DNA of 38,222 nucleotides, taken from positions 1 through 38,222 of IMG/VR virus record IMGVR_UViG_2703719347_000001. The stretch is one strand, 5' to 3'. Positions 30,963 through 32,394 of this stretch are shown here, piece by piece (position 1 is the first letter of the stretch; the number at the start of each line of letters is the position of its first letter). The notes below the pieces were generated by a model, which saw only the letters and a program-made list of their open reading frames with translations, was not told the origin of the DNA and did not search any database. Made by a program: the position numbers and the translations under genes. Origin of the DNA: a virus. Lineage: Duplodnaviria; Heunggongvirae; Uroviricota; Caudoviricetes.

Positions 30963-31456
30963 TAAGCCCCCACGTAATTCCCTGACAGATACCACTCTTC
31001 ACCTGATGCAGCCCGCTTACTGCTTTTCCGTAAACACCGTTCACGACGCGCCAGAAAATTGTTTCGTTCTGGCTGGGAGTAGCTTTCACGGAATGCCGCC
31101 ATCCACACCGTTGCAGCACGACGGTATAAGCCCCTGGACTCCAGTTCTTCCGCCTGGCGGGTCAGGCACAAAATCACCCGGGGATCGTTAGTGCCGACAT
31201 AGAAATTGCGCACAGGTCTGGTTTCACGAACTGGTTGTGGTTCCGGCTCCTGCGCTCTCTCAGTCAGGCGTGGGAAATGTCTGCGTGTATCTCCTTCACA
31301 ACGGTGAGCCACACGCCCACTCTGACGTAACTTGCTTGCTGACTGCAGAACGCGCTGCCGTGAGTAACCTGCAAAAGCATCCGCAATGTCTCCGGAAGTA
31401 CACCCCGGATGGGCTTCAATGAATTTCTGAACTTCATTCAAAAGACTCATGATCAC
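30962..31456 (-). CDS. Two-domain regulator with C-terminal PerC-like motif
   Basis: 164 aa; C-terminal segment EELESRGLYRRAATVWMAAFRESYSQPERNNFLARRERC resembles the PerC/Pch signature (GLxRRAAxxW); ATGA overlap with the upstream replication gene. Confidence 0.45.
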   Translation of the reverse strand: MIMSLLNEVQKFIEAHPGCTSGDIADAFAGYSRQRVLQSASKLRQSGRVAHRCEGDTRRHFPRLTERAQEPEPQPVRETRPVRNFYVGTNDPRVILCLTRQAEELESRGLYRRAATVWMAAFRESYSQPERNNFLARRERCLRKSSKRAASGEEWYLSGNYVGA

Positions 31457-32394
31457 CCCCTGAATCCTGCCGGGATCTGGCTGTAGTCCACGTTGTCGTA
31501 ACTGGCTTTGAAGTACGGGTCTTCACGTTTTTCTGTGTGCGTGCTGACGGATGGCGATAAGCGCAGGGAAAGCTCATCCCATTTTTCCCGCAACTTCGAC
31601 GGGCTGAGCACGTTACGGCACCAGAACGGATCGCGGCTGACGCGGCTGTACATCTCGCAGATTTGTTTGTGAGTACGACCATCCTGCACACACATCAGGC
31701 GAATTTCGTTTGCCCATGCTGTCCAGTTCGGTTCTTTGGGACGAACCACCTCGCCGTCACATTCGGCGGCCTGCTCGTACAGGGCAATGATTTTTTTCCA
31801 GAGCCACTGTGCGCAGGTCAAATCATCCTGCGTTCCCCACTGGCGCTTTTTAGGGCTGAATACAACCGCGTCAGGATGGCGAGTTAAAAAATCCTGTTCA
31901 GCCGTCTGCGTGTCCGGTTGCGAAGCGTCCGGACGAGAAGGTTTTTTATCTGACGGATCATGTTTTGATTTTACTGACGGATCCCCGCCAGATTCTGACG
32001 GGTGAAAACCCGCTTTTTTGCCAGATTTCGACGCATCAAATTTTGACGTGTCAGATTTTGATGCGTCAGATTTTGACGGGTCAGAATCTGACAGTTGAGA
32101 AAATGCCGCTGCCTGAAGCTTCGCAACGTTAAGCTGATAAACATTCGACGCATTGCGGTTACCCTGGCGACGCGCCTTACGCGTTAACCAGCCTTCTGCT
32201 TCCAGCCGTGCGATAGCCGTTCTGACGGTACTCATCCCCGCGCCAATCTGACGGGCAATGGTTTCAATTGATGGCCAGCACACACCTTCGTCATTACTGA
32301 AATCAGCCAGGCGGGCCATAATTGCCACGCTGGATAATTTCATGCCTGATGCAGCGCAACCATCCCATACATAGCCGGTTAATTTAGTGCTCAT
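31453..32394 (-). CDS. Replication initiator (O-like) with HTH N-terminal domain and internal iterons
   Basis: 313 aa; N-terminal winged-HTH (SSVAIMARLADFSNDEGVCWPSIETIARQIGAGMSTVRTAIARLEAEGWL); central pentapeptide repeats encoded by 15-bp tandem DNA repeats; position equivalent to lambda O. Confidence 0.65.
   Translation of the reverse strand: MSTKLTGYVWDGCAASGMKLSSVAIMARLADFSNDEGVCWPSIETIARQIGAGMSTVRTAIARLEAEGWLTRKARRQGNRNASNVYQLNVAKLQAAAFSQLSDSDPSKSDASKSDTSKFDASKSGKKAGFHPSESGGDPSVKSKHDPSDKKPSRPDASQPDTQTAEQDFLTRHPDAVVFSPKKRQWGTQDDLTCAQWLWKKIIALYEQAAECDGEVVRPKEPNWTAWANEIRLMCVQDGRTHKQICEMYSRVSRDPFWCRNVLSPSKLREKWDELSLRLSPSVSTHTEKREDPYFKASYDNVDYSQIPAGFRG
31989..32097. repeat. Iteron array: six copies of a 15-bp unit (consensus AGATTTTGACGNGTC), five in tandem phase
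   Basis: agattctgacgggtg / agatttcgacgcatc / aaattttgacgtgtc / agattttgatgcgtc / agattttgacgggtc / agaatctgacagttg read directly from the plus strand inside the initiator gene. Confidence 0.7.

What the first reader, a model, noticed from the sequence alone, without database searches (positions are those of the whole stretch)
31453..32394. Replication initiator with embedded 15-bp iteron array and no visible helicase-loader gene
Six copies of AGATTTTGACGNGTC (five in tandem phase, 32023-32097) lie inside the initiator coding sequence and encode pentapeptide repeats, the classic ori-within-O arrangement. Unlike lambda (O then P), the gene downstream is not a P or DnaC-like loader but a PerC-like regulator, so helicase recruitment must be done by the initiator C-terminal domain or by host factors.
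Basis: partly seen in the sequence, partly recalled or inferred. Interest (0 to 1): 0.45.

Follow-up and report, generated by a model that had tools for sequence, protein, structure and literature searches.

The report
Loader-less phage initiator with DnaT tail
A prophage replication-initiator gene carries its own origin (six binding-site repeats plus an AT-rich stretch) inside its coding sequence, has no helicase-loader gene beside it, and ends in the same short C-terminal peptide as the host restart protein DnaT, which suggests how it borrows the host helicase.

Summary
Window 31453-32394 (- strand) encodes a 313-aa lambda-O-type initiator. It has a winged-helix N-domain, a disordered linker, a C-domain 39% identical to that of lambda O, and a disordered tail.

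Six copies of a 13-bp palindrome (GTCA-N5-TGAC), five of them in 15-bp phase, lie in the linker-coding DNA. Next to them are two conserved AT-rich GATC repeats. Synonymous sites here are far more conserved than in the domains (0.84-0.90 against 0.42-0.43 codon identity). The repeat type also follows the N-domain type. Both point to a DNA-level element, an origin.

No P-, DnaC- or DnaB-like gene exists anywhere in the 38-kb window, nor is one annotated in the viable phage SfIV, which carries this module at 98% identity.

The added result concerns the last ~30 residues of these initiators, which track the loader gene across 79 species-level loci:
- W..TL tail: lambda-P-like gene, 10/10.
- WFVGG tail: DnaC-like plus DnaB-like, 5/5.
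- ..IPxGFRG tail (this gene): no loader in 48/51, a host-type DnaC paralogue in 3/51.

That GFRG tail is the invariant C-terminus of E. coli DnaT and of Rac YdaU.

Inference: the tail plugs the initiator into the host DnaB-DnaC or primosome route. The gene itself is known; this tail logic appears undescribed.

The parts
31453..32394 (-). Replication initiator CDS, 313 aa (lambda-O-type; relic homologues are K-12 e14 oweE/ymfN and CPS-53 yfdO; 98% DNA identity of the module to SfIV, whose gp41 is this gene)
   Evidence: ORF list; PHROG 391, E 5.5e-135; 98% DNA identity to SfIV/SfII and 99% to vB_EcoM-689R6
32104..32394 (-). Codes the N-terminal winged-helix DNA-binding domain (aa 1-97)
   Evidence: Pfam HTH_36, E 4.3e-11, aa 23-70. 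The AF2 model shows four helices, a beta wing and a final helix over aa 3-98. Foldseek hits are MarR-type winged helices.
32020..32092 (.). Iterons 1-5: 13-bp palindromes (GTCA-N5-TGAC) at 32080, 32065, 32050, 32035 and 32020, with 15-bp period. They encode pentapeptides of the disordered linker.
   Evidence: Codon identity 0.84 in 36 diverged relatives. Copy number is 5-8 in relatives at least 96% identical, in 15-bp steps.
32000..32019 (.). Spacer between iterons 5 and 6. On the gene strand it reads AAAAAAGCGGGTTTTCACCC: an A6 tract and a 5-bp hairpin.
31987..31999 (.). Iteron 6 (GCCAGATTCTGAC), 33 bp from iteron 5
   Evidence: It is conserved in Klebsiella and Pantoea relatives.
31940..31985 (.). 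Candidate DNA-unwinding element: two direct repeats GATCCGTCAG(T/A)(A/T)AAA 24 bp apart, each with a Dam site. This is the lowest-GC stretch of the gene.
   Evidence: GC 0.35 at 31940-31979. Direct repeat D11. Codon identity 0.90. The element is present in 51 loci, with at least 2 GATC in 46 of them, across N-domain and tail classes.
31555..31902 (-). Codes the C-terminal helical domain (aa 165-280), homologous to the lambda O C-domain
31456..31554 (-). Codes the disordered C-terminal tail (aa 281-313). The last nine residues, SQIPAGFRG (31456-31482), match the C-terminus of E. coli DnaT.
   Evidence: pLDDT below 50-60. DnaT ends SQIPPGFRG, 8 of 9 identical. The tail is invariant in DnaT orthologues. 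hhalign aligns only the tail (E 2.6e-4).
32384..32563 (-). Small DUF4222 gene (59 aa) that overlaps the initiator start by 11 nt. It is a frequent upstream companion of initiators of several classes.
   Evidence: Pfam PF13973, E 8.6e-19. Present next to the initiator in 37/51 GFR, 6/10 P-class and 7/9 WQQ-class loci.
30962..31456 (-). YfdN/PerC-like gene (164 aa) that overlaps the initiator stop codon. It is not a loader and not an obligate partner.
   Evidence: Pfam PerC, E 1.7e-8; PHROG 1324 'transcriptional activator'. Found in only 17/51 GFR-tail loci.

Best explanation
This is the replication module of an e14/SfIV-type lambdoid prophage: one initiator gene that contains its own origin.

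Shown by sequence:
- The protein has a winged-helix N-domain, a roughly 60-residue disordered linker, a lambda-O-type helical C-domain and a disordered tail.
- The linker-coding DNA holds five phased 13-bp palindromes, a sixth one, and then two AT-rich GATC repeats.
- This stretch is conserved at synonymous sites, and its repeat type follows the N-domain type.

Inferred: dimers of the N-domain bind the palindromes, and the adjacent GATC/AT-rich repeats melt, as at ori-lambda.

Shown: no helicase loader or helicase is encoded here, and this is the rule for initiators that end in ..IPxGFRG.

Inferred: the flexible tail carries the same terminal peptide as the host primosomal protein DnaT and the Rac protein YdaU, both of whose genes sit directly upstream of a DnaC-type loader gene. 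The tail would dock the origin-bound initiator onto the host DnaB-DnaC complex, or onto the PriA/PriB primosome that delivers it. Host DnaC would then load host DnaB on the melted origin, and no phage P or DnaC protein would be needed.

My confidence by step: origin inside the gene about 0.85; no phage-encoded loader about 0.9; the tail as the element that recruits the host loading machinery about 0.5. The overall figure of 0.55 is for the whole chain including the tail step.
For: Repeats:
- Six sites, all within 106 bp, with no other hit at 2 mismatches or fewer in 38 kb. Period 15.
- DNA-level constraint: codon identity among identical residues is 0.84 (iterons) and 0.90 (spacer, iteron 6 and AT-rich part), against 0.42 (N-domain) and 0.43 (C-domain), in 36 relatives under 80% identical.
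- The motif occurs only with the MS[TV]KL..YVWD N-domain type, whatever the C-domain or tail. Other N-domain types have other 15-bp palindromic arrays at the same place.
- The ori DNA maps onto residues 102-160, which AF2 models as disordered.
- The AT-rich GATC repeats are conserved in 51 loci.

Functionality: the module is 98% identical in SfIV, an isolated, lysogenising phage whose 54 annotated genes include no helicase or loader (PMC3851460).

No loader: tblastn with three loader/helicase classes finds nothing in the window. Pfam scans agree.

Tail-loader correspondence over unique initiators from species-level genomes:
- GFR tail: 48 without a loader, 3 with a DnaC-like gene.
- W..TL tail: 10/10 P-like.
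- WFVGG tail: 5/5 DnaC-like plus DnaB-like.
Alignments to the other classes stop at aa 279-284.
Pfam of 121 genes downstream of GFR-tail initiators gives methylases, PerC, RusA and DUF968, with only 2 IstB-type and no helicase.

DnaT tail:
- DnaT ends [17 protein letters not shown].
- The window protein ends VDYSQIPAGFRG.
- Relatives end RDINAISxPDxxIPxGFRG.
- Rac YdaU ends VNTVSLPDSAIPPGFRG and is followed by the DnaC-like YdaV.
- The tail is invariant in 20 DnaT orthologues.
- Host DnaC is 47-51% identical over its full length to the DnaC-like genes next to GFR-tail initiators.
- tblastn of the last 25 aa of DnaT against 50,697 phage-collection records hits 47 records. All phage hits in the 40 rows listed lie on annotated replication proteins or on unannotated/hypothetical ORFs; three rows are DnaT-type sequences.
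Against: - Nothing here is biochemical. Binding of the N-domain to the repeats, melting of the AT-rich part and any partner of the tail are all inferred.
- In this particular protein only the last 9 residues match DnaT (pairwise E 0.009). The longer 17-20-residue match is seen in relatives.
- The function of the DnaT tail is not established in the papers I could read. Removing residues 154-179 only halves ssDNA affinity (PMC4132743). [quoted passage not shown]
- A second loader-less class (tail WQQAAEQAA.., 9/9 without a loader) lacks the GFRG motif, so this tail is not the only way to do without a loader.
- The AT-rich element is only about 65-68% A+T.
- The 15-bp iteron spacing is tighter than in lambda (20-24 bp).
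- Some homologues keep only about two repeat units (P0016, P0032).
- The loci are related, so the counts are not independent events.
Confidence: 0.55

Rival explanations
1. The tail does not contact DnaB-DnaC. Instead it recruits PriA (or PriB/PriC). The phage origin, once melted, is then treated as a restart substrate, and the whole PriA-PriB-DnaT primosome loads DnaB.
For: The DnaT C-terminal part docks on PriA through a conserved hydrophobic interface (PMC13377028). PhiX174, Mu and ColE1 already use this route (PMC5778457). In Firmicutes the conserved C-terminal region of DnaD binds PriA (PMC4909229 title), and the C-domain here is weakly DnaD-like.
Against: Tail classes track the loader type encoded next door. 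The GFRG tail sits beside DnaC-type genes in three independent settings: dnaT-dnaC, ydaU-ydaV and O-like plus DnaC-like. That fits a loader contact more simply. The text of the cryo-EM paper does not say that the extreme tail forms the PriA interface.
Confidence: 0.2
2. An unrecognised phage protein in the module is a novel loader or adaptor. Candidates are the DUF4222 59-aa protein, YmfM, YfdN/PerC-like and the LexA-DBD-like protein. In that case the tail similarity is incidental.
For: DUF4222 is translationally coupled to the initiator and widely conserved. YfdN overlaps the initiator stop, exactly where P sits in lambda.
Against: DUF4222 is equally common next to initiators that do have a P gene (6/10), and is absent from 14/51 loader-less GFR loci. 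YfdN is present in only 17/51 and matches a transcription-activator family. Klebsiella and Pantoea relatives have neither YfdN nor the LexA-like gene, yet have no loader.
Confidence: 0.1
3. Helicase loading is independent of the initiator C-terminus and plasmid-like: host DnaA, or transcription/R-loop formation from the early promoter, opens the origin and brings in DnaB-DnaC. The initiator only marks the site.
For: Iteron plasmids (pSC101, R6K, RK2) work this way (my own knowledge). The origin lies inside the pR-type early operon, so it is transcribed.
Against: No DnaA box with 1 mismatch or fewer lies inside the initiator gene; the nearest are about 650 and 900 bp away. This view does not explain why the conserved C-domain and tail are retained in all loader-less relatives.
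Confidence: 0.1
4. The repeats are only a slippage-prone, low-complexity coding linker, and the real origin lies elsewhere.
For: Copy number varies in 15-bp steps. Some homologues keep about two units. The encoded peptide is disordered.
Against: Synonymous-site conservation extends into the non-repetitive AT-rich part (0.90). The same 13-mer is kept across genera whose flanking domains have saturated synonymous sites. The peptide differs between lineages (SKSDx, PSNxD, ERPEx) while the palindromic 15-bp architecture is kept. The repeat type follows the N-domain type.
Confidence: 0.05

Closest known systems
Bacteriophage lambda O protein and ori-lambda
   Same: Two-domain initiator with the origin (iterons, then an AT-rich region) inside its own gene between the domain-coding parts. 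The C-domain is homologous (39% identity over 112 aa). The gene is in the early rightward operon after cro and a cII-like gene.
   Different: - There is no P gene downstream.
- The tail is ..IPAGFRG rather than ..TDWIYGVDL.
- The iterons are 13-bp palindromes at 15-bp spacing, five plus one in number, instead of four 18-bp sites at 20-24 bp.
- The N-domain scores as HTH_36 and gave no hit to other Pfam replication families above threshold.
E. coli primosomal protein DnaT (protein i)
   Same: The extreme C-terminal peptide is identical in type (S-x-P-D-x-x-I-P-x-G-F-R-G; 8 of 9 residues here, 12-15 of 15-17 in relatives). It follows a flexible segment.
Rac prophage YdaU-YdaV and related O-like plus DnaC-like modules (L090-L092, L146, L158)
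   Same: Same GFRG tail. In L090-92, L146 and L158 the C-domain is also the same. Same position in the early operon.
   Different: Those modules carry a full-length DnaC paralogue (47-51% identical to host DnaC) directly downstream, and the window does not. YdaU has a DUF1376 N-terminal part instead of HTH_36.
DopC-DopE (domesticated lambda O/P-like pair; Brezellec et al. 2017, PMC5509034)
   Same: An O-like HTH_36 protein linked to DnaT-derived sequence. The same paper draws the parallel between O-P and dnaT-dnaC.
   Different: DopC carries the DnaT C-terminal domain (PDB 2ru8-like), has no iterons and is paired with a P-like loader. Here only the tail is DnaT-like, iterons are present and no loader is encoded.
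DnaD-type replisome organisers of Firmicutes and their phages (DnaD; SPP1 G38P/G39P)
   Different: The similarity is below family thresholds. Those systems work with DnaI/G39P-type loaders encoded nearby.
Iteron-plasmid Rep proteins (pSC101 RepA, R6K pi, RK2 TrfA)
   Same: A winged-helix initiator binds direct repeats and uses host DnaB-DnaC without encoding a loader (my own knowledge).
   Different: Those origins lie outside the rep gene and contain DnaA boxes. No DnaA box lies in this gene, and the protein has one winged helix plus a lambda-O-type domain, not two winged helices.

Membership tests
Lambda-O-type initiator with intragenic origin | C-terminal domain homologous to the lambda O C-domain | tested here: met
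   39.3% identity over aa 166-277, E 1e-17 to lambda and many lambdoid O genes
Lambda-O-type initiator with intragenic origin | N-terminal sequence-specific DNA-binding (winged-helix) domain | tested here: met
   Pfam HTH_36, E 4.3e-11; AF2 winged helix over aa 3-98. DNA binding itself was not tested.
Lambda-O-type initiator with intragenic origin | Array of repeated binding sites inside the gene, between the domain-coding parts, under DNA-level selection | tested here: met
Lambda-O-type initiator with intragenic origin | AT-rich unwinding region next to the iterons | tested here: inconclusive
   This is the lowest-GC 40-bp stretch of the gene (0.35) and is strongly conserved with GATC repeats. 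It is only about 65-68% A+T, and melting was not tested.
Lambda-O-type initiator with intragenic origin | Partner loader gene (P) immediately downstream | tested here: not met
   The downstream gene is PerC/YfdN-like. There is no P-like hit in the window.
Lambda-O-type initiator with intragenic origin | Initiator binds the iterons and the fragment acts as an origin | not testable with these tools
   Needs EMSA or footprinting and an ori-cloning assay
DnaT (primosomal protein I) | DnaT three-helix ssDNA-binding domain (Pfam PF17948) | tested here: not met
DnaT (primosomal protein I) | Conserved extreme C-terminal peptide ..PDxxIPxGFRG | tested here: met
DnaD-like replisome organiser | DnaD_N winged helix and DnaD-like C-terminal helical domain | tested here: inconclusive
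Iteron-plasmid type origin | DnaA boxes adjacent to the iterons | tested here: not met
   No TTATCCACA with 1 mismatch or fewer within 31453-32394; the nearest are at 32751 and 33004
PerC family (downstream gene 30962-31456) | Match to Pfam PF06069 above the gathering score | tested here: met
   35.1 bits against 22.6, aa 100-151

The most novel reading that the evidence does not exclude
The ..PDxxIPxGFRG peptide is a portable docking motif for the enterobacterial DnaB-DnaC loading machinery, or for PriA. This would be the missing link in how DnaT hands the helicase to a restart site. Phage initiators with at least four unrelated N- or C-domain types have acquired it, which lets them dispense with a loader gene. 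Conversely, the host dnaT-dnaC operon may descend from such a phage 'tailed organiser plus DnaC' pair.
Probability: 0.35. Interest if true: 0.8.

Novelty: new variant of a known kind. Interest (0 to 1): 0.62.

Why it matters
How the PriA-PriB-DnaT preprimosome recruits DnaB-DnaC is still stated to be unknown in the 2026 structural literature (PMC13377028). No direct DnaT-DnaC contact had been documented as of the 2017 review (PMC5778457).

An invariant DnaT tail that recurs on dozens of phage initiators, and whose presence tracks the absence of a phage loader or the presence of a host-type DnaC paralogue, gives a concrete, short, mutable element to test. It also explains how a large class of temperate phages of Escherichia, Shigella, Salmonella and Klebsiella replicate with one replication gene. 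That class includes serotype-converting phages and prophages carrying PerC-like genes.

It gives a rule for reading replication modules from the initiator's last residues, and it corrects the 'primosomal protein I' annotation.

Tried and rejected
- Sequence search of solved structures with aa 159-313: no hit at E up to 1.
- DUF4222, YmfM and YfdN as replacements for the loader: not specific to loader-less loci.
- DnaA boxes near the repeats: none.
- An internal sigma-70 promoter or a known RNA family as the reason for DNA conservation: 0 promoter-like sites and no Rfam hit.
- The c4 gene cluster (about 620-680 aa) seen downstream in several relatives looked like a possible helicase. It is a C5 cytosine methylase.
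- Literature: Weigel and Seitz 2006 (bacteriophage replication modules) is not in the library. The term 'initiator-solo' returned nothing. Searches for DnaT plus lambdoid/prophage and for YdaU/DUF1376 found no description of the tail motif on phage initiators. The cryo-EM papers do not state in their text which DnaT residues touch PriA.
- I could not model complexes, because the structure tool folds single chains only.
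Full report
**1. The observation**

Window 31453-32394 (- strand) is a 313-aa ORF. The core 13-mer GTCAGATTTTGAC occurs with at most 2 mismatches at + 31987, 32020, 32035, 32050, 32065 and 32080, and nowhere else in the 38,222 bases. With at most 3 mismatches there are 21 hits against 10.6 expected, and no shuffle out of 100 reaches 21.

Tandem Repeats Finder gives period 15, 4.3 copies, score 86. Each unit is an inverted repeat, GTCA-N5-TGAC. The units are in frame and encode LSDSD, PSKSD, ASKSD, TSKFD and ASKSG; after an 18-nt spacer the sixth encodes HPSES.

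**2. What the gene is**

- PHROG 391 'replication initiation O-like' matches over the full length (E 5.5e-135).
- Pfam sees only an HTH_36 winged helix at aa 23-70 (E 4.3e-11).
- tblastn shows that aa 166-277 are 39.3% identical to the C-terminal domain of lambda O (E 1e-17).
- An AF2 model of the whole protein has a winged-helix domain (aa 3-98), a disordered stretch (aa 102-160, pLDDT below 50), a helical domain (aa 166-278) and a disordered tail (aa 282-313).

The iteron and AT-rich DNA (gene nt 301-456) therefore encodes the disordered linker. This is the same relative position as ori-lambda in O.

**3. Context**

On the - strand the order is Cro, a YmfL/CII-like gene, YmfM/DUF4222, the initiator, YfdN/PerC-like, a LexA-DBD-like gene, RusA, KilA-N, DUF968 and Q. 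A cI-type S24 repressor is divergent.

The module is 98-99% identical to Shigella phages SfIV and SfII and to E. coli phages vB_EcoM-689R6 and Kati. K-12 holds relics of it in e14 and CPS-53. SfIV is an isolated, lysogenising phage (PMC3851460). Its 54 annotated genes include no helicase or loader.

**4. Is the repeat region a cis element?**

Four lines of evidence say yes.

(a) I took 36 relatives under 80% identical that share the N-domain type. The fraction of identical codons among identical residues is:

| Region | Codon identity |
|---|---|
| N-domain | 0.42 |
| Iteron part (aa 100-125) | 0.84 |
| Spacer, iteron 6 and AT-rich part (aa 126-152) | 0.90 |
| C-domain | 0.43 |
| Tail | 0.36 |

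(b) The GTCAAAATCTGAC motif is found only with the MS[TV]KL..YVWD N-domain type, whatever the C-domain or tail. It is absent from initiators with other N-domains. Lineages with other N-domain subtypes have different 15-bp palindromic arrays at the same place, encoding different peptides (PSNxD, ERPEx).

(c) Close relatives differ by whole 15-bp units, from 5 to 8 copies.

(d) Downstream of the iterons lie two direct repeats, GATCCGTCAG(T/A)(A/T)AAA, 24 bp apart, in the lowest-GC stretch of the gene (GC 0.35). The element is present in 51 loci, with at least two GATC sites in 46 of them, across N-domain and tail classes.

No promoter-like site, Rfam family or DnaA box accounts for this conservation.

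I conclude that 31940-32097 is the origin. Binding and melting remain inferred.

**5. Is there a loader?**

tblastn with lambda P, two further P-like or DnaC-like sequences and a DnaB-like helicase found nothing in the 38-kb window. Pfam scans of the early-right and early-left genes found none.

Diverged relatives show the same picture:
- Klebsiella: the initiator is followed by Dam, RusA, DUF968 and Q.
- Pantoea: it is followed by a ParB-like gene, AAA_15 and Q.
- An E. coli lineage: it is followed by DUF1627.
- A Rac-like lineage with the same C-domain is followed by a DnaC-type AAA+ gene.

**6. Tail classes track loader classes**

A scan of one genome per species gave 79 loci. I extracted each initiator ORF and searched each locus (+/- 4 kb) for loaders. 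Alignments to the window protein stop at aa 279-284 in several classes. The core C-domain is therefore shared and the last ~30 residues are class-specific.

| Tail class | Loader genes within +/- 4 kb |
|---|---|
| ..IPxGFRG | none in 48, DnaC-like in 3 |
| W(N/E)xxxxW(E/D)x(T/V)L | lambda-P-like in 10 of 10 |
| WFVGGGNV | short DnaC-like plus DnaB-like in 5 of 5 |
| WQQAAEQAA.. | none in 9 of 9 |

Pfam on 121 genes downstream of GFR-tail initiators gave methylases, PerC, RusA, DUF968 and antirepressors. Only 2 were IstB-type and none was a helicase.

The GFR tail is attached to at least two different C-domain types: the lambda-O type and a 'YLRPxTLF' type that I take, from memory and untested here, to be the Phg_2220_C type. 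It is also attached to many N-domain types.

DUF4222 and YfdN are not specific to loader-less loci.

**7. The tail is the DnaT tail**

- E. coli K-12 DnaT ends ...[20 protein letters not shown].
- The window protein ends ...YDNVDYSQIPAGFRG: 8 of the last 9 residues are identical, at both extreme C-termini.
- Relatives end ..RDINAISxPDxxIPxGFRG or ISEPDTEIPPGFRG.
- In 20 DnaT orthologues S167, P169, D170, I173, P174, G176, F177, R178 and G179 are invariant. Some end GFRGAK, as do two Enterobacter prophage initiators.
- Profile-profile comparison aligns only these 18 columns (E 2.6e-4). Pfam DnaT does not match. This is a shared short motif, not a shared domain.
- K-12 Rac YdaU (DUF1376) ends VNTVSLPDSAIPPGFRG and is followed by the DnaC-like YdaV. 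dnaT is followed by dnaC.
- Host DnaC is 47-51% identical over its full length to the DnaC-like genes beside GFR-tail initiators, but only 32% identical to the short DnaC-like genes of the WFVGG class.
- The last 25 residues of DnaT, searched against 50,697 phage-collection records, hit 47 records. In the 40 rows listed, three are DnaT-type sequences (two bacterial contigs annotated 'primosomal protein 1' and one unannotated fragment). The phage hits lie on annotated replication proteins, or on unannotated or 'hypothetical' ORFs in a few records. They include Rac ydaU, the Gifsy-1/2 'gpO homologue', SPN1S, and POCJ13 and 75/02 Stx 'primosomal protein I'.

**8. Mechanism proposed**

Shown: the architecture, the cis element, the absence of a loader, the tail-loader correspondence and the identity of the tail with DnaT.

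Inferred: N-domain dimers occupy the six palindromes, and the GATC/AT-rich repeats open. The flexible tail then brings in host DnaB-DnaC, either directly (my preference, because the tail sits next to DnaC-type genes in three independent contexts) or through PriA/PriB.

The literature does not settle the tail's partner:
[quoted passage not shown] DnaT's C-terminal part docks on PriA, and the authors speculate that the N-domain recruits DnaB/DnaC (PMC13377028).
- Truncating DnaT 154-179 halves ssDNA affinity (PMC4132743).
- No DnaT-DnaC contact had been documented by 2017 (PMC5778457).
- Brezellec et al. linked O-like proteins, DnaT-derived sequence and the dnaT-dnaC / O-P parallel for DopC-DopE, but not this tail (PMC5509034).

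**9. Verdict**

The gene and its loader-less context are already in databases, so it is not new as an object.

What appears new is the rule that the initiator's last residues specify the helicase-delivery route, and that this class carries the DnaT tail. I found no paper describing it, but the library is incomplete.

Main weaknesses:
- There is no biochemistry.
- The loci are phylogenetically non-independent.
- Only nine residues match in this particular protein.
- A second loader-less class lacks the motif.

Noticed in passing
window 30251-30639 (- strand), deletion near 30506: rusA is split into two ORFs (30484-30639 and 30251-30520) by a 1-nt deletion relative to the intact 390-nt rusA of phage vB_EcoM-689R6 (99% identical otherwise). 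This is either a pseudogene or a sequencing error.
   Followed up: yes
window 32384-32563 and 32404-32742 (- strand): A 59-aa DUF4222 ORF (Pfam E 8.6e-19) overlaps the annotated 112-aa YmfM ORF in another frame, and overlaps the initiator start by 11 nt. DUF4222 abuts the initiator start in most relatives of several tail classes, so the C-terminal half of 'YmfM' may be a shadow ORF. The function of DUF4222 is unknown.
   Followed up: partly
window 30960-30995 junction; L002 5060-5713: A roughly 650-bp Dam-type methylase gene lies between the YfdN-like and LexA-DBD-like genes in vB_EcoM-689R6 and SfII. It is absent here and in SfIV. Adenine methylases are the commonest genes downstream of GFR-tail initiators (22 of 121), and the candidate unwinding element carries conserved GATC sites. 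This hints at methylation control of the origin, as at oriC or P1 oriR.
   Followed up: partly
loci L101, L105, L107, L109, L121, L135, L151, L152, L168: A second loader-less initiator class (Providencia, Buttiauxella, Ewingella, Dryocola) ends in W(Q/K)(Q/E)xA(E/Q)... instead of GFRG. No P-, DnaC- or DnaB-like gene lies within 4 kb in 9 of 9 loci. How it recruits a helicase is unexplained.
   Followed up: no
locus L148 (uncultured Serratia): An initiator with the same N-domain and iteron type ends ..GGTDDDFI, which is reminiscent of the SSB C-terminal tip (DDDIPF, from my own knowledge). It is followed by a DnaC-like gene.
   Followed up: no
window 31999-32012 (+ strand): A terminator-like hairpin (CGGGTGAAAACCCG followed by a T run), antisense to the initiator, sits in the spacer between iterons 5 and 6. 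The hairpin is not conserved in the Klebsiella or Pantoea relatives.
   Followed up: partly
window 35894-37759 (+ strand): The early-left operon holds YfdQ (DUF2303), a YfdR-like HD-domain protein (36819-37382) and a downstream 128-aa ORF. K-12 YfdR was reported to bind DnaA, and the yfdQRST cluster to inhibit chromosomal initiation (PMC4776307, title only). The phage may therefore also interfere with oriC.
   Followed up: no
window 37756-38166 (+ strand): An IS3-family transposase orfA (HTH_Tnp_1, E 2.4e-19) lies at the end of the window, where excisionase and integrase genes lie in related phages. This prophage end may be disrupted.
   Followed up: no
window 27659-28453 (- strand): The Q antiterminator (Pfam Antiterm, E 4e-53) also has a weak match to the DnaJ-type CXXCXGXG zinc-finger family (E 4.5e-7, 30.5 bits, below the cut-off of 32.7).
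   Followed up: no
loci L170, L094, L095 (E. coli): Relics of this initiator occur in E. coli chromosomes. One is an e14-type fusion that keeps only aa 1-79 joined to unrelated sequence (455 aa). The other is a CPS-53-type 3' fragment (aa 79-313) that still ends in IPAGFRG and is still followed by yfdN.
   Followed up: partly
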